The translations under genes were made by a program, and so were the position numbers. From positions 44,517 to 108,516 of the forward strand of contig JBFXAH010000022.1 of NCBI GenBank assembly GCA_050184475.1: DNA of 64,000 nt, given 5' to 3'. This document shows, piece by piece, positions 49,373-64,000 of this stretch; position 1 is the first letter of the stretch; each line of letters starts with the position of its first letter. This DNA is from Pirellulales bacterium (GTDB taxonomy: Bacteria > Planctomycetota > Planctomycetia > Pirellulales > JAEUIK01). The notes under the pieces were generated by a model. It had not been told where the DNA came from. It saw only the letters and a list, made by a program, of their open reading frames with translations, and ran no database searches.

Positions 49373-50140
49373 GTGGCCAAGCTGCGCATCCTCGCACTGC
49401 ACGCCCATCCCGATGACATCGAATTCCAATGCGCCGGCACGCTGGCGTTGTTGACCGACGCCGGACACGAGATCACCATCGCCACGATGACCCCCGGCGA
49501 CTGCGGCAGCCGCGAGCATGGCCCCGACGAAATCGCCGCCATCCGCCGCGCCGAGGCGCGCCGCGCCGCCGAGCTGATTGGCGCCCGCTACGAGTGCCTG
49601 GAGTTCCGCGATTTGTCGATCGTGATCGATCTCGACGCCAAGCGGCGGGTGACCGAAGAGATTCGTCGCGCCCGGCCCGACCTCGTCTTCACAGCCCCGC
49701 CGGTCGACTACATGGACGATCACGAAGCCACCAGCCACCTGGTGCGGGCGGCCGCCTTCAACGCCAGTTGCCCGAACTACAAAACCCGCGCCTGGGAACC
49801 GGCCGAGCCGACCGAACGGATACCGCACTTGCTGTACGTCGATGCGGTCGAGGGGATCGACTTATGGGGCAACCCGCTCGTGCCCCATTTCTATGTCGAC
49901 ATCAGCGACGTTTTCGCCCGCAAGCGCGAAATGCTCGCCTGCCACGAAAGCCAGCGCAACTGGCTGCGCGCCCAGCACGGCGTCGACGAATACCTCGACA
50001 ACCAGGAGCGCTGGAGCGCATCGCGCGGCAAGGAGATCGGCGTCCGGTACGCCGAGGCGTTCCGCCAGCACCGCGGGCATCCCTACCCCGGCGACAACGT
50101 GCTGGAAAAGCTGTTGCCCGGGCGGGTGCGGGTGAAATAG
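49373..50140 (+). CDS. PIG-L/LmbE family deacetylase
   Basis: LRILALHAHPDDIEFQCAGTLALL...HLVRAAAF. Confidence 0.85.
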   Translation: MAKLRILALHAHPDDIEFQCAGTLALLTDAGHEITIATMTPGDCGSREHGPDEIAAIRRAEARRAAELIGARYECLEFRDLSIVIDLDAKRRVTEEIRRARPDLVFTAPPVDYMDDHEATSHLVRAAAFNASCPNYKTRAWEPAEPTERIPHLLYVDAVEGIDLWGNPLVPHFYVDISDVFARKREMLACHESQRNWLRAQHGVDEYLDNQERWSASRGKEIGVRYAEAFRQHRGHPYPGDNVLEKLLPGRVRVK

Positions 50141-50242: not shown

Positions 50243-50374
50243 CAATTTGCGTCCCGACCGTCCCGAGCGCGTGTTACTGGCGGTTAAGGGTTTCATGGGC
50301 AGCAACTTGCGTCGGGACGCAAATTCACATGTTTGCGTCCCGCTTGCGTCCCGAACTGGCATTTTGCGTCCCGA
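50243..50374 (+). repeat. TTGCGTCC-array element, unit A (unit-specific triplet CGA)
   Basis: TTGCGTCC-CGA at 50246, 50343 and 50363, and TTGCGTCC-CGC at 50332. Partial CGTCCCGA at 50258. Inverted TCGGGACGCAA at 50311-50321, forming the palindrome TTGCGTCGGGACGCAA (50306-50321). Confidence 0.9.
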
Positions 50375-50402
50375 GTATGGGGGTAATGGTTAGTGGTTCG
50401 TG

Positions 50403-50433
50403 GTCAGGGGTCAGGGGGGGTCAGGGGTCAGGG
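50403..50433 (+). repeat. GGGGTCA heptamer tract (canonical G-quadruplex motif; TGA in all three frames on the minus strand)
   Basis: G-runs at 50406-09, 50413-19, 50423-26 and 50430-32, separated by TCA. The TCA triplets at 50403, 50410 and 50420 fall in three different phases. Confidence 0.85.
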
Positions 50434-50443
50434 CCAAGGAACC

Positions 50444-50564
50444 CGGATCTCGCGCAAAGCCGCGAAGGCGCAAAGTAATGCGGCCTGTGGTCCGCAGATT
50501 TCGCCGATTGGGAATGCGGGCGAGTCCACGAGCGGCCCATCTGCGCAATCTGTGAAATCTGTGG
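50444..50564 (+). repeat. ~120-bp repeat, copy R1
   Basis: GGATCTCGCGC...GGCGCAAAGTAATGCGGCCTGTGGTCCGCAGATTTCGCC...GCGGGCGAGTCCACGAGC...ATCTGTGAAATCTGTGGA. Aligns with R2 apart from two indels and scattered substitutions. Confidence 0.9.
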
Positions 50565-50600
50565 ATTGTGAATTGGCCTTATCTCTCGCTCCATGTCCGG

Positions 50601-50732
50601 AATTTTGCGTCCAAACCGTCCAAAGCCGTTGTTGCCGGCAGTTAAGTCGTTCCAGCCAATCCACTTATTCTTGGACGCAAAATAAAATCGTTTGCGTCCA
50701 ACTTGCGTCCAAGCCGGAGTTTTGCGTCCAAA
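50601..50732 (+). repeat. TTGCGTCC-array element, unit B (unit-specific triplet AAA/AAG/AAC)
   Basis: TTGCGTCC-AAA at 50604 and 50721, -AAC at 50691, -AAG at 50702. Partial CGTCCAAA at 50616. Inverted CTTGGACGCAA at 50669-50679. Architecture is the same as unit A. Confidence 0.9.
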
Positions 50733-50737
50733 GACGA

Positions 50738-50860
50738 AGGATCTCGCGCCAAGGCGCAAAGCAATGCGGCCTGTTGTCCGCAGATTTCGCTGATTAACGC
50801 AGATTGGGAAAGCGGGCGAGTCCGCGAGCAGCTCCTCTGCGTCATCTGTGAAATCTGTGG
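50738..50860 (+). repeat. ~120-bp repeat, copy R2
   Basis: Second copy of R1, in the same position relative to unit B as R1 has relative to unit A. Confidence 0.9.
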
Positions 50861-51040
50861 ATGATGCATTCATGCCCACGACGAGCTTGGTCAACTGGCG
50901 GATTGCGGCGCGCACCGCGAGCGGCCCTCTCCGCACCGACTCTGACAAACGATCACGCTTGATCGCGAAGCCCCTGGGGGAGATGCGGACTGATTAGCGA
51001 AGTCGGCGGAGTGTCGTTCCTCCTTTCGATGCAGCCCCAA

Positions 51041-51282: not shown

Positions 51283-51445
51283 CCAGCGACGATTGCCTCG
51301 TCGCTGGCACCCTCTCCCACGAGGGGAGAGGGTATCCGAACGCCGGCAAATTTGTAGCCGGGGCCTGTGACGTCTGTGACCCCGGTCCGGCCTCACTGTA
51401 GCCGGGGTCTGCGACCCCGGTCCGGCCTCGCAGAGGCCGGCTACA
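51283..51445. repeat. Cluster of GC-rich hairpin repeats
   Basis: CCAGCGACG/CGTCGCTGG (51283-51307), CCCTCTCCC/GGGAGAGGG (51310-51332), and duplicated TGTAGCCGGGG(C/T)CTG(T/C)GAC (51353, 51397) closed by CCGGCTACA (51437-51445). Confidence 0.8.
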
Positions 51446-51540: not shown

Positions 51541-51786
51541 TCACCCGCCGCTGACCGGCGGAATCAGTGCCAGCTCGTTGCCGGGGGCGATCGGAGTGCC
51601 GTCGGTCGCGTATTGAGAATCGACCGCGACGTGCGCGTGCGCGACGACCGCGGCCAGCCGCGGCTCGACTTCGACCAACCGGCGGCGCAGATCGCCGACC
51701 GTGGCGCCGTCGGCCAGCGCCAATTCCAGCTCGTTGCAGCCAGCCAACTCGCGGGCGACGGCGAATAACTTGACGGTCACTTGCAT
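51541..51786 (-). CDS. moaD: MoaD/ThiS-family sulfur-carrier protein
   Basis: 81 aa, MQVTVKLFAVARELAG...ELALIPPVSGG, with the terminal Gly-Gly. Confidence 0.8.
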   Translation of the reverse strand: MQVTVKLFAVARELAGCNELELALADGATVGDLRRRLVEVEPRLAAVVAHAHVAVDSQYATDGTPIAPGNELALIPPVSGG

Positions 51787-51835
51787 GGTGGCAGTCGATG
51801 CGCTCAGAGAATCCGGCAACCAGGTTTTGCGATCG

Positions 51836-54800
51836 CTAAGTTACGGTCAGCTCGCCGCTGCGTTGCGACAACAGGCCCGCCACTTCCGGCATCAATCCAT
51901 ACGACAAGGCCAGCAGCTTGAGCGGATGGATCGTCGGCTTGCTGGTCCCCTGTTCCATTTGCAGCTTGCAGGCGCTGCACTCGGTGGTGCCGACCTGTAC
52001 CGCTCGATCGCGCACGGCGCTGATCAACCCGATGCCGGCCCGCAGACTATTGCGAAAGTTCTCCTGCCGCAATCCAAAGGTGCCGGCCATGCCCGAGCAC
52101 CCTTTGTCGATGCGTTGTAAGCGGAGCGCCGGGATCAGCCGCAGCAGACTTTCGCCAGGGCTGCCGACTCCCAGCGCGCGCAAGTGGCACGGCAAATGGT
52201 ACCCGACGCTGGCGTTGACCGGCGCCAGGTCGAGCGCGAGCTTGCCCTGGCGGTGCAAGGCGGCGAGATAGGCGCAGGCCTCGCTGGTGTTTTCGGCCAC
52301 GAGCCGCGAATCTTCGTCGCGCAGCAGGGCCGGGTATTCCCAGGTGAGCGCCAGCGCCGCGGCCGGCTCGGTGGCCACGATGCTGAATCCCTGGCGGACC
52401 GCTTCGGCCAGCAGCCGGACGTGATGCTCCGCGGTTTCTCGCGCTTGCTCGAGCGCGCCGGCCGCGAGCAGCGACATGCCGCTGGCGCGCTGCTGCGGGT
52501 GGACGTAAACCGCGACCGTGTTGTGCTCGAACACCGCCACCAGGGCATCGCCCAGTTGTGGGTCGTGATAGTTGGCGTAGGTGTCGACGAAGTACAGCAC
52601 TTTGGGGCCGGTGCGCCGGGTGGGGCGCGTCAGCCCGCGGCGGCGCGCGCGATCGAGAAACGTCTGCGTGGCGAAGCGGGGCACCTTGCGCGCCCGCGCG
52701 ATTCCGAACAGGCGTTCGGCCAGCCAGCGCGCCTGTCGATTGCCGACCAGTCGATTGAAAAGCGGCGCGAGCCGCTGCCCGATGGCGCTAACGGCGTCGA
52801 TCCGCGCGAAGACCCAATCGCGAAAGTGCAAACCATGCGTGGCGACGTGCGCGGCCTTGGCTTCGAGCACCAACCGCGGAATGTCGACGTTGGCCGGGCA
52901 TTCGAGCCGGCACTGGTGGCAGTTCACGCAGAGATCGGCCACGGCGCGGGCTTCGTGCGTCGAGAGCGTGTCGGCCGGCATGTCGCCCGTGACCACGCCG
53001 CGCAGCAGATTCGCCTTGGCGCGGGGGGACGCCTCTTCGGCCGGAGCGAAACGAAAAATCGGACACATCCGCACGTCGGCGGCTTGAGATCGGCACGAGC
53101 CGCAGCCGTTGCAAGCGCCGGCGGCCTCGGCCAATTGATCGAGGCTCCAATTCAACTGCAATTCGACGACGCGCGGCGCGGCAGGAGGAGCCGCCGCCAG
53201 ATCGGCCGCCAGTTCGATGGCGGTCGGCGCGGCCATGACCGGTTCGACCGGCGGGCTCATCGCCCGCGACGTCAGGGGTAACGGGCGCAGATTCTTCGTC
53301 AGCAGATCCGGATCGTCGCCGATCACCTTGCCGGGGTTGAACAAGTTTTGCGGATCGAAGACGCGTTTGATCTCGGCGAACACGTCGTACAGCTCGCCGT
53401 ATTGCCGGCGCACGAAACTGGTGCGGCTCAGCCCGTCGCCGTGTTCGCCGCTGATCGTGCCGCCGACGGCCAGCACCGAGTCGTACAGGTCGCTGGCCAG
53501 GCGACGCATCGTGCCGATGCTGGCGGGATCGGCCAGGTCGAGAAAGGGCCGCAAATGCAACTGCCCGTGCCCGGCGTGACCATAGAGCGACGCGGTGACC
53601 AGGTGTCGCTTGAGCACGTTTTGCATGTCGGTGAGAAAACCGGGCAAGGCCTCGGGCGGCACGGCAATGTCTTCGACGAACGGCACCGCCCGCGACGAGC
53701 CGCGCAGCCGATAGAGTGTCGGCACGACGCGATGCGCCAATTGCCAGAAGAGCTCGATGTCGTCGCGGTCGAAGGCCTGGCGGGCATCGAACGACAGCCG
53801 GCGGCGGCGCGTCTGGTCGATCACGCGTCGCAGCCCGTCGCGCACCTCGACGGCCGTGTCGGCCTGGTACTCGACGATCAAAACTGCTTCGGCATTGCTC
53901 GGTATCAGTTTTTCGAAGCGCGGTTCGTGCTCGCGGGCCAACGACAGGTGCCGGCGATCCATCAGGTCGCAGGCGCTCGGCCCCAGCGGCACGATTTCGG
54001 CGACCGCCCGCGCCGCGGCTTCCAACCGCTCGAAGAACAACAGGGCGACGCCCCGTTGCCGGGGGAGCGGCTGCACGTCGAGCGTGGCCTCGGTCACCAG
54101 GGCCAGCGTCCCCTCGGAGCCGCACAGCAGTTTGGCGACGTCGAGATGACCGTCGGCCAACACGCCCCCCAGAGCATAGCCCGACCGATTGACGAGGCTG
54201 CGCGTCGTTTGGCGGTTGACCTGTTCGGCATGGCTTTCGAGCACATTTCCCAAGTCGGCCACGAGGGCGCGTTTGCGGGCGCTGGCTCCGCCGCTGATGT
54301 CGACATCGACTGGTTCGCGTCCGACTTCGACCACCGCGCCGTCGGCCAGGACGATCTGCAAGCTGCGCACATGGCGTCGCGCCGACCCCCACCGCAACCA
54401 ATGACTGCCGGCGGCGTCGATCGCGATCACGCTCCCCATCGTCGTGACGTGGCTCATGGCCGGATCGGGGCCGAAACAGCGCTCTTGCGCGCGGAGCTGC
54501 TGATTGAGCCGTTCGAGCACCAGGCCCGGCTGCACGCGCACGGTTTCGTCGTCGGCGCTTACAAGGCGGCGCATGTATCGCGAAAAATCGATCACCAGCC
54601 CCGGCCCCAACGACTCGCCGGCCAAACCGGTGCCGGCGCCGCGGGCGTGGATCGGTATCTCGTTTTCGCCGGCATAGCCGACCACGGCCACGACGTCGGC
54701 CAACGTCCTAGGACAGACGACCGCCAGCGGGCGGATCTGATAGATGCTGGCGTCGGTCGCGTAAAGCTGCAGCGCGACGTCGTCGGCTTGGACCGACCCT

Positions 54801-54850
54801 TCGAGCAGGCCGCGGAGATCGTCTTGGATGCGTTCTCGAACTTCGTCCAT
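51836..54850 (-). CDS. FAD-binding oxidase fused to a 4Fe-4S / CCG-domain protein (GlcD-GlcF-like, D-lactate/glycolate oxidase type)
   Basis: 1004 aa. N-terminal FAD_binding_4 region (HARGAGTGLAGESLG), ferredoxin-type cysteines (CNGCGSCRS..., CVNCHQCRLECP) and C-terminal CCG repeats (LPCHLRALG, DKGCSGMAGTFG). Confidence 0.9.
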   Translation of the reverse strand: MDEVRERIQDDLRGLLEGSVQADDVALQLYATDASIYQIRPLAVVCPRTLADVVAVVGYAGENEIPIHARGAGTGLAGESLGPGLVIDFSRYMRRLVSADDETVRVQPGLVLERLNQQLRAQERCFGPDPAMSHVTTMGSVIAIDAAGSHWLRWGSARRHVRSLQIVLADGAVVEVGREPVDVDISGGASARKRALVADLGNVLESHAEQVNRQTTRSLVNRSGYALGGVLADGHLDVAKLLCGSEGTLALVTEATLDVQPLPRQRGVALLFFERLEAAARAVAEIVPLGPSACDLMDRRHLSLAREHEPRFEKLIPSNAEAVLIVEYQADTAVEVRDGLRRVIDQTRRRRLSFDARQAFDRDDIELFWQLAHRVVPTLYRLRGSSRAVPFVEDIAVPPEALPGFLTDMQNVLKRHLVTASLYGHAGHGQLHLRPFLDLADPASIGTMRRLASDLYDSVLAVGGTISGEHGDGLSRTSFVRRQYGELYDVFAEIKRVFDPQNLFNPGKVIGDDPDLLTKNLRPLPLTSRAMSPPVEPVMAAPTAIELAADLAAAPPAAPRVVELQLNWSLDQLAEAAGACNGCGSCRSQAADVRMCPIFRFAPAEEASPRAKANLLRGVVTGDMPADTLSTHEARAVADLCVNCHQCRLECPANVDIPRLVLEAKAAHVATHGLHFRDWVFARIDAVSAIGQRLAPLFNRLVGNRQARWLAERLFGIARARKVPRFATQTFLDRARRRGLTRPTRRTGPKVLYFVDTYANYHDPQLGDALVAVFEHNTVAVYVHPQQRASGMSLLAAGALEQARETAEHHVRLLAEAVRQGFSIVATEPAAALALTWEYPALLRDEDSRLVAENTSEACAYLAALHRQGKLALDLAPVNASVGYHLPCHLRALGVGSPGESLLRLIPALRLQRIDKGCSGMAGTFGLRQENFRNSLRAGIGLISAVRDRAVQVGTTECSACKLQMEQGTSKPTIHPLKLLALSYGLMPEVAGLLSQRSGELTVT

Positions 54851-60209: not shown

Positions 60210-60683
60210 CTACCAGCGGCGCCACCAGGCGCGGCGCGGCACGTAGTACAGACCTGGCGAGTAGTAGTACGAGGTCACCGGCGTGTAGTAGCTGACGCTC
60301 GGCGCGTAATACGTCACCGTCGGCGCCGGAGCGTAGTACGTGGTGACCGGGGTCGCGACCGGGGCGTAATACGTCGTCGTCGGCACGCTCGTCGAGTAAT
60401 AGGTGGTCGTTGCCGGAGCGTAATACGTCGTGGTCGTCGGCGCGTAGTAGGTCGTCGTACTCGGCGCGTAGTAAGTCGTGGTCGCCGGCGCGTAATACGT
60501 CGTGGTCACAGGCGCCTCGTAAACGACCGGCGCCGTGCTCCGGTAATAGGTCCAGTACGGAGCATACGACGTCGAGTACACTTCGACCGGCGCAACCACG
60601 GCATCCGGCCACGCCTGCGCGCTCGGCGTCACCGCGAAAGTAGTTGCCACCAGCACGCACGTCATCACAAGCAGTCTGTTCAT
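60210..60683 (-). CDS. Secreted Tyr/Thr-rich repeat protein (xTTTYYAP octad repeats)
   Basis: Signal peptide MNRLLVMTCVLVATTFAVTPSAQA. There are 7 YYAP motifs plus YYST, YYTP, YYYSP and YYVP variants. C-terminus RRAWWRRW. Confidence 0.6.
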   Translation of the reverse strand: MNRLLVMTCVLVATTFAVTPSAQAWPDAVVAPVEVYSTSYAPYWTYYRSTAPVVYEAPVTTTYYAPATTTYYAPSTTTYYAPTTTTYYAPATTTYYSTSVPTTTYYAPVATPVTTYYAPAPTVTYYAPSVSYYTPVTSYYYSPGLYYVPRRAWWRRW

Positions 60684-61628: not shown

Positions 61629-61733
61629 GGGGAACAGGGTTCAGAGTTTAGGGGTCAGGGATCAGGAGACAGAGGTCAGTGGCCAGGGATCAGACTCGGT
61701 GAGGATGAGGGGTCAGGGATCAGAGGTCAGGGG
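61629..61733 (+). repeat. G-rich GGGGTCAGGGATCAG repeats abutting the start codon of the nucleosidase-family gene
   Basis: GGGGTCAGGGATCAG at 61651-61665 and 61709-61723. Further GGG/GGGG runs at 61629, 61637, 61685 and 61730. Confidence 0.85.
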
Positions 61734-62884: not shown

Positions 62885-63221
62885 TGAGTGGCGGTAGGGT
62901 ACGCACTCCGTGCGTACCACGATCGGGAACTTTAATTTCACTGCGCGAGCACCGGTTGCACGCACCAGCGACCTAATCCGGTACGCACCTGGCATACTCC
63001 GCGCGTGACTCGCCGGCATTGTCGAAATCTACGAGACGCGCACCCCTTCGACAGAATCACCCGCTGTGTGACCGCTCACGCGTGCGCGGCGGAGCGCTCG
63101 TTTCCGCCGCCAGCGGCGGGTTGCCTAGTTCGTAGTCGGGCAGCTCGAAATCGTCTTGCGGATCGCCCACGAAGTAGCGGGCCAGCGGCCCCAGGCCCAA
63201 GAGCTTCGTCACCTGGCTATT

Positions 63222-63385
63222 CGAGTTCGGGTGCACCCGGTCGCAAGATACTGAGCGGCGCACAGGCCCCAAGCTGTGCGGTCAATTCGAGTTCAGGTGC
63301 AATATTCAAGACACCGGGTCGCAAAGTGCTGAGCGGCGCACAGGCCCCGAGCTGTGCGGTCAATTCTGAGTTCGGGTGCAATACC
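63222..63385 (-). repeat. Tandem 66-80-bp repeats carrying degenerate TTGCGACC motifs and a conserved hairpin
   Basis: GAGTTC(G/A)GGTGCA...CTGAGCGGCGCACAGGCCCC(A/G)AGCTGTGCGGTCAATTC starts at 63223, 63289 and 63368. Stem CGCACAG/CTGTGCG at 63259-63265 / 63274-63280. Confidence 0.85.
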
Positions 63386-63392
63386 TAAGACA

Positions 63393-63532
63393 CCCGGACG
63401 CAAACTGCCGACCCGGACGCAAACCGGACGATCACCCGGACGCAAAACTGCGCCGGTGTTACACGACCCAAGTTGTGCCGTCTAATCGATTTACGGTCCA
63501 ATATCAGGACACCCGGACGCACCCGGACGCAA
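63393..63532 (-). repeat. TTGCGTCC-array element, unit C (inverted orientation; unit-specific triplet GGG)
   Basis: CCCGGACGCAA, the reverse complement of TTGCGTCC-GGG, at 63393-403, 63412-422, 63435-445 and 63522-532. Partials at 63424-430 and 63512-520. Order and spacing mirror units A and B. Confidence 0.9.
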
Positions 63533-63618
63533 AATTACGGAGCTTCTTATGTCGTGGGGGGGTGTGAGTGAGGGGAGAAGTAGTGAGGGGAGAGTCGAGA
63601 GGAGTAAGGAGAGAAGTC

Positions 63619-63644
63619 GGGGATCAGGGGCTAGGGATCAGGGG
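63619..63644 (+). repeat. G-quadruplex-type tract GGGGATCAGGGGCTAGGGATCAGGGG, followed by C-rich CCCCTGGCCT repeats
   Basis: G-runs at 63619-22, 63627-30, 63634-36 and 63641-44. CTGGCCTGTC(A/G)CCCCTGGCCT repeats lie at about 63661-63725. Confidence 0.85.
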
Positions 63645-63728
63645 CGGATCATCACCCATAGACTACGGCCTCTGGCCTGTCACCCCTGGCCTCTGGCCGC
63701 TGGCCTGTCGCCCCTGGCCTGTCGCCTG

Positions 63729-64000
63729 CTACTCGTATTTCAGTGCCTGCACCAGCGGCTGGCGCGACATGCGGCGGGCTGGCAGCGCCGCGGCCGCCAG
63801 CGATACGACCACCGCCGCCGCCGCGCAGCCGACGACAAACGGCACGTCGATCGCAAAGGGGACTTGTCGTCCGAGGATCGCCTTGGTGCTGGCGTTCATC
63901 AGCCAGGCTAGCGCGCAGCCGACCGCGACTCCCGGCAGCACGCTCGCCATGGCCAGCGTGACTGCCTGGCCGAAGACCATCTTGCGGACCTGCCGGCGGA
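63729..64000 (-). CDS. FtsX-like ABC transporter permease, C-terminal part (gene continues past the right edge)
   Basis: ...VFGQAVTLAMASVLPGVAVG...VVSLAAAALPARRMSRQPLVQALKYE*. The frame is open up to position 64000. Confidence 0.75.
   Translation of the reverse strand, partial: RRQVRKMVFGQAVTLAMASVLPGVAVGCALAWLMNASTKAILGRQVPFAIDVPFVVGCAAAAVVVSLAAAALPARRMSRQPLVQALKYE

What the first reader, a model, noticed from the sequence alone, without database searches (positions are those of the whole stretch)
50243..50732. Two adjacent ~135-bp arrays of phased TTGCGTCC motifs whose flanking triplet changes in concert (CGA versus AAN)
Units A (50243-50374) and B (50601-50732) share one architecture. It runs: full motif, 1 nt, partial motif, about 40 nt, one inverted motif, then three direct motifs at 11-nt and 19-20-nt spacing.

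The core TTGCGTCC is invariant. The next 3 nt are CGA (once CGC) in all six copies of unit A, including the inverted one (TCGGGACGCAA). They are AAA, AAG or AAC in all six copies of unit B, including its inverted one (CTTGGACGCAA). A third unit, 13 kb away on the other strand, has GGG throughout.

Simple duplication plus drift should not change every copy in a unit the same way. So the copies within a unit are either homogenised or co-selected, meaning they are read together. The 11-12-nt phasing is one helical turn, which is what plasmid iterons and ParR-type centromeres (arrays of 11-bp direct repeats) look like. All three units lie within about 65 kb of the dnaA/dnaN origin cluster.

An alternative is a transcript carrying repeated nnnGGACGCAA motifs on the complementary strand, acting as a protein sponge in the manner of Csr/Rsm sRNAs. 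The null hypothesis is a REP/BIME-like dispersed repeat that accumulates in convergent intergenic regions.
Basis: partly seen in the sequence, partly recalled or inferred. Interest (0 to 1): 0.8.

Follow-up and report, generated by a model that had tools for sequence, protein, structure and literature searches.

The report
Orphan mobile-element replication-origin repeat arrays
The two repeat arrays, and a third 13 kb away, are stand-alone copies of the binding-site cluster that sits at the 3' end of the primase-helicase gene in a large family of mobile elements and is probably their replication origin; each array carries its own two-base "address", and the sites are kept intact in this Pirellulales chromosome with no such gene in the 64-kb window.

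Summary
Units A (50243-50374), B (50601-50732) and C (63394-63536, minus strand) share one architecture of TTGCGTCC sites. The bases after the core are CG, AA and GG respectively.

They are neither a local duplication nor an RNA. The same array lies at or over the 3' end of a DUF3854 / D5-like SF3 primase-helicase gene in 47 of 120 metagenomic loci, in two IMG/VR contigs and in three genome-scan loci. One of these elements carries phage head genes. More distant relatives sit in islands with an integrase and an HTH_17 gene.

That layout matches the origins of Staphylococcus pathogenicity islands: short iterons directly 3' of rep, in both orientations around an AT-richer centre, read by the initiator's C-terminal winged helix. 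The concerted "triplet" is in fact a dinucleotide. It is best read as lineage-specific initiator-iteron specificity.

In Pirellulales-type DNA the array occurs as about 58 initiator-less "orphans" of classes GG, CG, AA and TA. They are often in tandem with different classes and often lie between convergent genes. Their site cores are 96-100% conserved while their spacers are 51% identical.

What the orphans do is not shown: trans-activated pseudo-origin, initiator sink, or selfish repeat. Verdict: a new variant of a known kind.

The parts
50243..50374 (+). Unit A, CG class. Terminal pair T1 50247-50257 and T2 50259-50266. AT-richer spacer 50267-50311. Inverted site 50312-50322. Direct sites D1 50333-50343, D2 50344-50354 and D3 50364-50374.
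   Evidence: nhmmer with the 31-orphan profile gives E=9e-32. Aligned with 30 other orphan units.
50601..50732 (+). Unit B, AA class. T1 50605-50615 and T2 50617-50624. Spacer 50625-50669. Inverted site 50670-50680. D1 50692-50702, D2 50703-50713 and D3 50722-50732.
   Evidence: nhmmer E=1e-35. Alignment A3.
63394..63536 (-). Unit C, GG class. T1 63525-63532 followed by GGG, with an adjacent GCGTCC-GGG. Degenerate inverted site near 63450-63460. Direct sites 63438-63445, a partial site near 63425-63431, 63415-63422 and 63396-63403.
   Evidence: nhmmer with the GG-class profile gives E=2e-45 over 63394-63558. The same variant occurs 21 times among the fetched units.
63234..63408 (-). 78-nt tandem repeat (2.2 copies) extending unit C. 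Each copy is a degenerate TTGCGACC-GG site plus the GG-class spacer module.
   Evidence: The GG-profile nhmmer hits 63234-63323 and 63312-63402. The same module follows GG units in L019, L158 and L172.
50455..50575 (+). Associated second repeat after unit A, not part of the TTGCGTCC unit. It has inverted clusters of YRCAGAT 7-mers at a 9-10-nt period, giving a long hairpin.
   Evidence: 6 matches against 0.11 expected. RNA fold z = -1.9 on the plus strand and -0.9 on the minus strand.
50740..50865 (+). Associated second repeat after unit B, the same family as 50455-50575.
   Evidence: RNA fold z = -3.8 on the plus strand and -2.8 on the minus strand.

Best explanation
Units A, B and C are initiator-less ("orphan") copies of an iteron array. 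In a large family of integrative or phage-like mobile elements, that array lies at or over the 3' end of the gene for a DUF3854 / D5-like SF3 primase-helicase. By analogy with the islands of Staphylococcus aureus (SaPIs), it is that element's replication origin.

Each site is a conserved core, (TTG)CGTCC, plus a lineage-specific dinucleotide. The whole site is proposed to be bound by the initiator's C-terminal winged helix. All sites of one array must fit the same protein, so the variable dinucleotide changes in concert in direct and inverted copies alike. Different lineages (CG, AA, GG, TA, GC, CC and others) carry different "addresses", which keeps co-resident replicons from cross-reacting.

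The orphan form keeps the distal half of the origin: two sites pointing in, an AT-richer spacer, one site pointing back, then three direct sites. It has spread through intergenic DNA of Pirellulales genomes, where its sites remain under selection.

In the chromosome the orphans most probably act in trans. They would bind the initiator of a matching resident or incoming element, either as pseudo-origins or as titration/handcuffing sites.

What is shown and what is inferred:
- Shown: homology of the array to the gene-linked arrays, the position of those arrays, uniformity within a unit, conservation of the sites, and the fold class of the protein.
For: 1. Homology and position.
- The same architecture, with the same central (G)TTAAG motif, is found in Pirellulales MAGs and also at the 3' end of a helicase gene in L006, L061 and L001.
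- It is likewise at the helicase 3' end in IMG/VR contigs L116 and L120 and in 47 of 120 metagenome loci.
- In 41 loci the layout is constant: >>>, about 50 nt, <.<, >, <<<, starting about 150 nt after the winged-helix motif. In about 11 loci the stop codon lies before the array, so the conservation is at the DNA level.

2. The protein.
- It has DUF3854 (Toprim-like) at the N terminus.
- An AlphaFold model (pLDDT 86) matches the SaPI5 PriRep5 (7OLA), PriRep1 (7PDS), poxvirus D5/E5, ASFV PrimPol and NrS-1 helicases.
- The C terminus is helix-helix-beta-hairpin, with the motif WPKxxRxLSxxLRR.
- The tail encoded by the array is disordered in the model.

3. Precedents in the literature.
- SaPI Reps bind penta- or hexanucleotide iterons through a C-terminal winged helix. 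There are 6-12 iterons immediately downstream of rep, an AT-rich centre, at least two iterons on each side in opposite orientations, and cognate specificity (PMC9371898).
- DUF3854 proteins are plasmid Reps in cyanobacteria (PMC10079941).
- Homologues of the helicase are encoded on small plasmids of 12-20 kb.

4. Family-wide pattern. More distant relatives in Acidobacteria islands (HTH_17, helicase, DUF6788, then an integrase) have the same layout with other cores, such as CGTCA-GA.

5. One reader for all sites.
- 90% of 357 sites agree with their unit's dinucleotide.
- Complementarity to the inverted site is about equal at T2 (30/31), D1 (27), D2 (28) and D3 (28), and is 21/31 at T1.

6. Constraint in the orphans. 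Cores that the scan did not require are 96-100% conserved, against 51% pairwise identity in the spacer. The spacer is 48% GC and the loop 37% GC, against 65% for the window.

7. The wing motif R-T-R is found in 15 of 21 GC-class proteins but in 1 of 18 others. The classes are not simply clades.
Against: - No initiator gene or relic lies in the 64-kb window. None lies next to 35 orphans that have at least 1.5 kb of sequence on the expected side. The cognate reader in this genome is therefore unidentified.
- Origin function of the gene-linked arrays rests on analogy. No binding or replication was tested.
- The array also lies directly upstream of the next gene, so it could serve as an operator.
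- The winged-helix-to-dinucleotide correlation is weak. L156 (GA) and L159 (AC) have nearly identical winged helices.
- There is no known route by which half an origin would disperse as a discrete 135-160-bp unit.
- The scan pattern required T1, T2 and one direct site to be intact, so decayed copies are under-sampled.
Confidence: 0.65

Rival explanations
1. A purely selfish dispersed repeat, like a MITE or REP. The units are non-autonomous mobile DNA that proliferates in tolerant (convergent) intergenic regions. They have no present function for host or element. The uniform dinucleotide is simply inherited from each subfamily's master copy.
For: - There are many copies with sharp boundaries in Pirellulales-type contigs, in only a few classes (GG 21, CG 16, AA 13, TA 4).
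- 16 of 30 lie between convergent genes.
- Tandem clusters of different classes are common.
- The units are absent downstream of the orthologous PIG-L gene in relatives at 74-92% identity.
- L006 and L061 show about 25-43-bp terminal inverted repeats.
Against: - Orphans have no terminal inverted repeat, and no transposase lies nearby.
- CG and AA units share the same backbone. Spacer identity is 0.55-0.60 both within and between these classes, so the class is not just a marker of descent.
- Site cores are 96-100% conserved against 51% in the spacers. This requires selection for binding competence at some level.
- This reading does not explain the fixed position at the 3' end of helicase genes.
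Confidence: 0.15
2. An operator array. The sites bind a transcription regulator of the mobile element, for example the adjacent HTH_17 protein or the helicase's own C-terminal domain. This would control the gene that starts just beyond the array. Chromosomal orphans would then be stray operator copies.
For: - In L116 the distal site cluster ends about 40 nt before the ATG of the next gene, which has a GGGAGAG ribosome-binding site.
- HTH_17 genes flank the helicase gene: downstream in L006 and upstream in L244 and L246.
Against: - In most loci the array lies inside the helicase reading frame, about 200 bp long and symmetric. That is an origin-like layout, not a promoter-like one.
- The 25 nt beyond T1 encode the conserved C-terminal peptide GGW(R/S)xR(I/L), not a promoter.
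- Orphans in the window face the 3' ends of genes.
Confidence: 0.1
3. A partition (centromere-like) site of the mobile element, in the manner of ParR/parC or ParB/parS. Orphans would be chromosomal copies bound by a segregation protein.
Against: - No ParA/ParM or ParB/ParR genes were seen among the array's neighbours in the elements examined.
- Spacings are 9, 11 and 19-21 nt with mixed orientations.
- The array's position is tied to the replication-initiator gene.
Confidence: 0.05
4. A structured or protein-sponging RNA carrying repeated nnnGGACGCAA (or UUGCGUCCnnn) motifs.
For: - The inverted site can pair with a direct site over 10-11 bp, with compensatory changes at two pairs (UA 14 / CG 13; GC 14 / UA 12 / AU 4) across 31 units.
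- The neighbouring YRCAGAT hairpins fold better on the plus strand.
Against: - There is no Rfam match.
- The MFE partner of the inverted site differs between A (D3) and B (T1). The z-scores are only -0.7 to -2.8.
- The same covariation holds for all five direct sites, and four of them cannot be paired at once.
- Spacers show no structure on either strand (mean z = -0.2).
- GG-class units lack the inverted site altogether.
- In the mobile elements the array is coding or immediately post-coding DNA.
Confidence: 0.03

Closest known systems
SaPI / PICI replication module: Rep or PriRep self-loading SF3 helicase plus an iteron origin immediately 3' of rep (PMC9371898)
   Same: - The initiator has the same fold class. 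The Foldseek hits include 7OLA and 7PDS.
- There is a C-terminal winged helix.
- The sites are short (5-8 bp), 6-12 per origin, placed directly after or over the end of the initiator gene.
- Sites lie in both orientations around an AT-richer segment.
- The site sequence is element-specific.
   Different: - The N-terminal primase-like domain is DUF3854/Toprim-like rather than the SaPI Pri type.
- The array is usually translated as a Ser-rich, then Asp-rich, tail ending in a conserved GGWRxRI peptide.
- The site is a conserved core plus a variable dinucleotide.
- The window's copies have no rep gene at all and are dispersed in the chromosome. This has not been described for SaPIs.
Satellite phage P4: alpha primase-helicase with octamer iterons in ori and in crr, which is two adjacent direct repeats of about 120 bp (from my own knowledge, not checked here)
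   Same: - A multifunctional primase-helicase initiator whose C-terminal winged helix binds about 8-bp iterons.
- A second, initiator-binding cis region made of two adjacent repeats of about 120 bp carrying direct and inverted iterons. This strongly resembles units A and B in form.
   Different: - P4's ori and crr share one iteron sequence and lie within the element. Here adjacent units have different specificities and lie in core chromosome.
- There is no sequence similarity.
Iteron plasmids: origin iterons and extra control arrays such as P1 incA or F incC, which titrate or handcuff the initiator (general knowledge; review PMC4980987 was listed but not read)
   Same: - Arrays of direct repeats are read by one initiator.
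- Iterons and initiator co-evolve and define incompatibility.
- Extra arrays outside the origin bind the initiator and act in trans.
   Different: - The initiator here is an SF3 helicase, not a RepA/TrfA/Pi-type WH1-WH2 protein.
- The sites are 8-11 bp, not 17-22 bp.
- No DnaA boxes were identified.
- The orphans are chromosomal, numerous and of several specificities.
SV40 / polyomavirus origin: GAGGC pentanucleotides bound by the large T antigen, an SF3 helicase (general knowledge)
   Same: Pentanucleotide cores (here CGTCC) clustered at short fixed spacing in opposite orientations, which would allow head-to-head loading of two hexamers.
   Different: The DNA-binding domain differs and is at the other end of the protein: the origin-binding domain lies N-terminal to the helicase in T antigen, whereas here it is a C-terminal winged helix. 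The comparison is an analogy only.
REP/BIME elements, including CGTC-tagged REPs (PMC3733652)
   Same: A dispersed, high-copy intergenic repeat that favours convergent gene ends, clusters in composite arrangements, and contains the tetranucleotide CGTC.
   Different: - REPs are 20-40-bp hairpins with an 8-9-bp stem, a 4-5-nt loop and an unpaired tag.
- Here five of six sites are unpaired direct repeats within a 135-bp unit.
- No RAYT gene is present.

Membership tests
SaPI-type Rep-iteron origin | 6-12 short (penta- to octanucleotide) iterons | tested here: met
   There are six sites per unit in A and B and six or seven in C. Gene-linked arrays have 7-16 sites.
SaPI-type Rep-iteron origin | Iterons on both sides of an AT-rich segment, pointing in opposite directions | tested here: met
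   T1 and T2 point forward, then comes the spacer (48% GC against 65% for the window), then the inverted site pointing back. Unit C and the other GG-class units lack a clear inverted site.
SaPI-type Rep-iteron origin | Located immediately 3' of the initiator (rep) gene | tested here: not met
   For the window units, no helicase gene or relic is found in 64 kb. The feature is met by the homologous arrays in 47 of 120 metagenome loci and in L006, L061, L001, L116 and L120.
SaPI-type Rep-iteron origin | Initiator is an SF3 self-loading helicase with a C-terminal winged helix | tested here: met
   This was tested for the linked protein family. The model has pLDDT 86. Foldseek hits include 7OLA and 7PDS, poxvirus D5/E5 and ASFV PrimPol. 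The C terminus is helix-helix-beta-hairpin.
SaPI-type Rep-iteron origin | Cognate initiator binds the iterons and the array supports replication | not testable with these tools
   This needs EMSA or DAP-seq and replication assays.
Iteron-plasmid origin (RepA/TrfA/Pi type) | 17-22-bp iterons, a WH1-WH2 initiator and DnaA boxes | tested here: not met
   The sites are 8-11 bp. The linked initiator is a D5-like helicase. No DnaA-box cluster was noted in the units.
ParR/parC-type centromere | Two blocks of about five 11-bp direct repeats flanking the promoter of a parMR operon | tested here: not met
   Only one pair is spaced at 11 nt. Orientations are mixed. No par genes lie next to any array examined.
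REP/BIME (GTAG- or CGTC-tagged) | A 20-40-bp imperfect palindrome with a tetranucleotide tag, and an associated RAYT gene | tested here: not met
   The unit is 135 bp and mostly direct repeats. The spacers do not fold. The definition is taken from PMC3733652.
MITE | Terminal inverted repeats | tested here: not met
   Orphan units have one terminal cluster only. Inverted terminal clusters exist only in the gene-linked arrays.
MITE | Target-site duplication and insertion polymorphism | tested here: inconclusive
   The units are absent next to PIG-L orthologues at 74-92% identity, but synteny differs there, so no empty site could be aligned.
Csr/Rsm-like sponge RNA | A discrete transcript with GGA motifs presented in hairpin loops, and a match to a known family | tested here: not met
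   There is no Rfam hit. GGACGCAA sites fall in predicted stems or in single-stranded runs, inconsistently. Transcription itself is not testable here.

The most novel reading that the evidence does not exclude
The orphan arrays are kept by the host as a chromosomal set of initiator decoys. Each array (CG, AA, GG, TA) would titrate or handcuff the replication initiator of one lineage of invading primase-helicase elements, giving iteron-based incompatibility used as immunity. Tandem arrays of different classes would broaden the range covered. An equally novel mirror image is that they are minimal origin-only satellites, fired in trans by a matching initiator.
Probability: 0.2. Interest if true: 0.85.

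Novelty: new variant of a known kind. Interest (0 to 1): 0.62.

Why it matters
1. It assigns a probable origin, and a readable specificity code, to a very large and uncharacterised family of mobile-element initiators. More than 7,800 DUF3854 / D5-like proteins matched at E<=1e-20. The code is a conserved pentamer or octamer core plus two variable bases, and it can be read from sequence alone. That makes initiator-DNA recognition and replicon incompatibility in these elements directly testable.

2. Initiator-less origin halves are dispersed in a bacterial chromosome, their sites are maintained, and arrays of different specificity sit side by side. I found no description of this in the literature searches I ran. 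It raises a concrete question: do chromosomes use iteron arrays against mobile elements, or do origin fragments parasitise them?

3. These arrays break short-read assemblies. The contig of GCA_050174325.1 ends inside unit B.

Tried and rejected
- **Transposon-end idea (Tn7/Mu-like subterminal sites).** It was prompted by the 43-bp inverted termini in L006. I dropped it because the inverted clusters are part of a symmetric array fixed at the helicase 3' end. Orphans have one cluster only and no transposase.
- **attP arm-site idea.** No integrase lies adjacent to the array. In the islands the integrase is more than 2 kb away.
- **Promoter reading of the conserved 25 nt upstream of T1 (YAGAWW).** Rejected because in the gene-linked arrays this stretch encodes the C-terminal peptide ..SGGWRxRI*.
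- **Small-ORF reading of the units.** The frame is open in CG units but stopped in AA units (by eye).
- **Subfamily-by-descent test.** Spacers do not separate the CG class from the AA class.
- **Spacer hairpins that seemed to covary by eye.** They are not supported by folding z-scores.
- **Plasmid and phage collections.** There is no DNA match to unit A in the plasmid collection or to unit B in the phage collection. Plasmid homologues of the helicase at 36-44% identity lack TTGCGTCC arrays.
- **Protein scan of viral contigs with L061p.** Nothing was found.
- **Sequence search of the helicase against PDB and NCBIfam.** Nothing was found. Only the fold search was informative.
- **Empty-site comparison.** It failed because synteny is not conserved. 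The near-identical contig L121 differs only by T-to-A changes near its end, probably errors.
- **Search of held loci for the YRCAGAT second repeat next to helicase genes.** It was uninformative.
Full report
**1. The observation**

The window holds 16 exact TTGCGTCC octamers against 3.66 expected (0 of 100 shuffles reach 16). Fourteen of them fall in three places.

Units A (50243-50374, plus strand) and B (50601-50732, plus strand) are collinear. Each consists of the following parts in order:
- a full site (T1);
- one base, then a partial site CGTCC (T2);
- a 45-48-nt spacer;
- one inverted site;
- a loop of about 10 nt;
- three direct sites (D1-D2 11 nt apart, D2-D3 19-20 nt apart).

The three bases after every core are CGA or CGC in A and AAA, AAC or AAG in B, including the inverted copy. 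Unit C (63394-63536, minus strand) carries GGG or GGT throughout. Only the first two of the three bases are concerted.

Unit C differs in detail. Its inverted site is degenerate. It has an extra partial site. A 78-nt tandem repeat of its own spacer module follows it.

A profile built from related units finds just these three copies in the window and no decayed ones.

The neighbours are ordinary chromosomal genes:
- A and B lie in a 1.4-kb gap between a PIG-L deacetylase gene (49373-50140, plus strand) and a convergent pair: a short GC3-supported ORF (51541-51819, minus strand) and a FAD-oxidase/Fe-S gene (51836-54850, minus strand).
- Unit C lies just downstream of an FtsX-type permease gene.
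- dnaN is at 1153-2355.
- FtsH, ProRS, RNase R and a sulfatase are also present.

Close homologues of the PIG-L protein are labelled Pirellulales.

**2. The same unit elsewhere**

A genome-collection scan for two sites 11 nt apart returned mostly chance hits. It also returned units of identical architecture in Pirellulales and Planctomycetaceae MAGs (L016, L019, L023, L030, L057, L081, L085). Unexpectedly, related arrays also appeared in contigs binned as Heliobacteriaceae, Alphaproteobacteria and Chloroflexia.

In L006, L061 and L001 the array lies at the 3' end of a 620-725-aa ORF with a P-loop motif, and the reading frame runs through the array. Two IMG/VR contigs (L116, L120) show the same thing. 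L120 also encodes a Zn-finger/Toprim protein, an HK97-type portal and a protease-capsid fusion. The portal and capsid assignments are by eye from the translations.

A metagenome scan with an architecture-level pattern gave 120 loci. Forty-seven carry this gene directly beside the array.

I plotted 41 loci in the gene's orientation. The sites form the layout >>>, about 50 nt, <.<, >, <<<. The array begins about 150 nt after a conserved WPKxxRxLSxxLRR motif and spans about 200 bp. In most loci the stop codon comes just after the array. The tail then reads as a Ser-rich, then Asp-rich, segment ending in a conserved ..GGW(R/S)xR(I/L) peptide. In about 11 loci the stop precedes the array.

Three points place the constraint on the DNA rather than on the protein. 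The array is a reverse-complement-symmetric DNA structure. It is conserved whether or not it is translated. The tail it encodes is disordered in the structure model.

**3. What the linked protein is**

- Pfam sees only DUF3854 (Toprim-like) at the N terminus of L006p. PDB sequence search and NCBIfam see nothing.
- The family is very large. More than 7,800 proteins match at E<=1e-20, many named "DUF3854 domain-containing protein" from Acidobacteriota.
- An AlphaFold model built on 42 members (pLDDT 86.1) finds D5-like SF3 primase-helicases by Foldseek. The hits include ASFV PrimPol, SaPI5 PriRep5 (7OLA), PriRep1 (7PDS), poxvirus D5/E5 and NrS-1.
- Its last folded element is helix-helix-beta-hairpin, that is, a winged helix carrying the WPK..LRR motif.
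- Homologues are encoded on 12-20-kb plasmids of Methylobacterium and Methanothrix, on Streptomyces plasmids, and as the "DNA primase/helicase" of a Microbacterium phage.
- In long Acidobacteria contigs the gene sits in islands of the form HTH_17, helicase, DUF6788, unknown gene, then a tyrosine integrase. These islands carry type I restriction-modification cargo.
- DUF3854 proteins have been shown to be plasmid replication proteins in cyanobacteria (PMC10079941).

**4. Why I read the array as an origin with iterons**

For the structurally matching SaPI Reps, the published picture is as follows (PMC9371898):
- The C-terminal winged helix recognises penta- or hexanucleotide iterons.
- Six to twelve iterons lie immediately downstream of rep and constitute the origin.
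- The centre is AT-rich.
- At least two iterons on each side point in opposite directions.
- Each Rep binds only its cognate origin.

The arrays here meet every sequence-level feature of that description. The spacer between oppositely oriented sites is 48% GC and the loop is 37% GC, in a 65% GC genome.

More distant family members keep the layout but use other cores. L245 has CGTCAGAAT repeats facing CTGACGAT repeats. L243 has ATCGTCACC-type repeats. Site sequence therefore tracks the lineage of the linked gene across the whole family.

The steps "the winged helix binds these sites" and "the array is the origin" are inferences by analogy. Nothing here tests binding or replication.

**5. The concerted dinucleotide**

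Across 60 units of the window's architecture, 323 of 357 sites (90%) carry their unit's majority dinucleotide.

Thirty-one CG, AA and TA units were aligned. The dinucleotide is complementary to that of the inverted site at T1 in 21 units, at T2 in 30, at D1 in 27, at D2 in 28 and at D3 in 28.

RNAalifold does pick the inverted/D1 hairpin and reports two covarying pairs. The same covariation holds for sites that cannot pair at the same time, so it reflects a common reader and not base pairing.

Folding evidence is weak:
- As RNA, the units have z-scores of -0.7 to -2.8.
- The inverted site chooses different partners in A and B.
- The spacers have no structure on either strand (mean z = -0.2).
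- Rfam has no match.
- GG-class units lack the inverted site altogether.

CG and AA units share one backbone, with spacer identity of 0.55-0.60 both within and between these classes. The dinucleotide is therefore not merely a marker of two old subfamilies. It is a character that is held uniform within each array. This is what co-evolution of iterons with one DNA-binding domain predicts.

There is a first hint of the determinant. The wing reads R-T-R in 15 of 21 GC-class proteins and in 1 of 18 others. Classes are only weakly clustered by the upstream 185 residues (0.56 against 0.51 identity). Counter-examples exist: L156 and L159 have nearly the same winged helix but different, and weakly called, classes.

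**6. The orphans**

About 58 units have no initiator gene beside them. These include the window's three, and many others come from one set of samples (Ga0163150, Ga0163152, Ga0163153). Thirty-five of the 58 have at least 1.5 kb of sequence on the side where the gene would be. The window has no relic of the gene even by an HMM search with all filters off.

Orphans correspond to the distal half of the gene-linked array. Many of them also carry about 25 nt beyond T1 whose counterpart in the gene-linked arrays encodes the end of the protein. Units A and B in the window lack that conserved stretch.

They come in few classes: GG 21, CG 16, AA 13, TA 4. They are often in tandem with different classes:
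- CG then AA in L140, L167, L169 and the window;
- GG then AA in L155 and L158;
- GG then TA in L172.

By a crude GC3-based gene call, 16 of 30 lie between convergent genes.

Two Pirellulales-type contigs (L190, L225) contain lone or fragmentary helicase genes a few kb from an orphan. This shows that such elements visit these genomes.

The key result concerns cores that the scan did not require. These are 96-100% conserved: the inverted core is 100% in 31 of 31 units, D2 is 96% and D3 is 99%. The spacers are only 51% identical pairwise. The sites are therefore kept competent, either by the host or by selection among copies. The scan could not see badly decayed copies, so the strength of this constraint is an upper estimate.

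At the orthologous PIG-L gene of relatives (74-92% identity) there are no units. Gene order differs there, so no empty site could be aligned.

**7. Mechanism proposed, and its limits**

I commit to the following reading. A, B and C are initiator-binding iteron arrays of three specificities, derived from the origins of PriRep-type mobile elements. In the chromosome they can only act in trans on an initiator supplied by a matching element.

Whether they then fire as pseudo-origins, soak up initiator (the incompatibility mechanism known from iteron plasmids), or are simply tolerated selfish copies cannot be decided from sequence. I have no mechanism for how a discrete 135-160-bp half-origin spreads. 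That is the weakest point of the account.

The rivals are scored in their own sections: selfish repeat only, operator array, centromere, and RNA.

**8. Comparison with known systems, and novelty**

- The closest known system is the SaPI Rep-ori module. P4 alpha with its ori and crr is a close formal parallel (from memory, not checked here).
- The window's units fail one defining feature of membership, adjacency to rep. I therefore file them as orphan derivatives, not as an origin of a resident element.
- They do not meet the definitions of REP/BIME or CGTC-REPs (PMC3733652), of MITEs (no terminal inverted repeats), of ParR centromeres, or of classical 17-22-bp iteron origins.
- Literature searches for the motif, for DUF3854 and for chromosomal iteron arrays found no description of this family or of the orphans.
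- Verdict: a new variant of a known kind. It has a real open question attached, namely what maintains multi-specificity origin fragments in a chromosome.

Noticed in passing
window 50455-50575 and 50740-50865 (+): Each of units A and B is followed by a second repeat of about 120 nt. It has three YRCAGAT 7-mers at a 9-10-nt period, a spacer of about 30 nt, and three inverted ATCTGYG copies (6 pattern matches against 0.11 expected). It folds as a long hairpin that is more stable on the plus strand because of G.U pairs (z = -3.8 against -2.8). Similar elements follow units in L016, L057 and L140. Its layout resembles the helicase-linked arrays, so it could be an orphan array of another initiator lineage, or a structured RNA.
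   Followed up: partly
window 50380-50440, 61653-61732 and 63640-63730; L190 7390-7500: Low-complexity G-rich or C-rich heptamer-like runs (GGTCAGGGGTCAGGG, GTGGTTAGTGG, CCCACTGCCCACTG) flank many orphan units. They are often G-rich on one side and C-rich on the other. Their origin and role are unknown.
   Followed up: no
L061 6029-7960(-), L116 1819-3672(+), L120 813-2648(+), and P0011 and others: The helicase reading frame usually runs through its own iteron array. The protein therefore ends in a Ser-rich (..FASASSA.., ..SSESSE..) and then Asp-rich (..DDADDADD.., ..DADANG..) disordered tail, closed by a conserved GGW(R/S)xR(I/L) peptide. This is a case of DNA-level repeats dictating a protein tail.
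   Followed up: partly
L225 141-779, 1907-2560(-), 2691-2816(-), 2996-3307: A Pirellulales-type contig carries two relic helicase C-terminal fragments, what looks by eye like a PIN-type toxin/antitoxin pair (no family search was run), and a CG-class orphan unit within 3 kb. It looks like a graveyard of these elements.
   Followed up: partly
L243 and L245 (Acidobacteria contigs), about 3-8 kb and 16-21 kb: Islands of this helicase family carry type I restriction-modification systems (HsdR, HsdS, HsdM) as cargo, next to a tyrosine integrase.
   Followed up: no
window 51372-51440 and 60389-60515: There are other tandem repeats in the window: a 35-nt unit in 2 copies inside the long A/B intergenic region, and a 24/48-nt unit in about 5 copies (GTAATAGGTCGTCGTCGCCGGCGC) at 60.4 kb. 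They are unrelated to the TTGCGTCC units.
   Followed up: no
L121 (GCA_050174325.1 contig JBFXKA010000489.1) 3769-4342: A public assembly of what appears to be the same organism breaks inside unit B. Its last 100 bases differ from the window only by T-to-A changes, probably end-of-contig errors. These arrays fragment short-read assemblies.
   Followed up: yes
window 63060-63215 (-): A short ORF of about 51 aa (VTKLLGLGPLARYFVGDPQDDFELPDYELGNPPLAAE..) starts right after unit C's tandem repeats. It was not checked for homologues.
   Followed up: no
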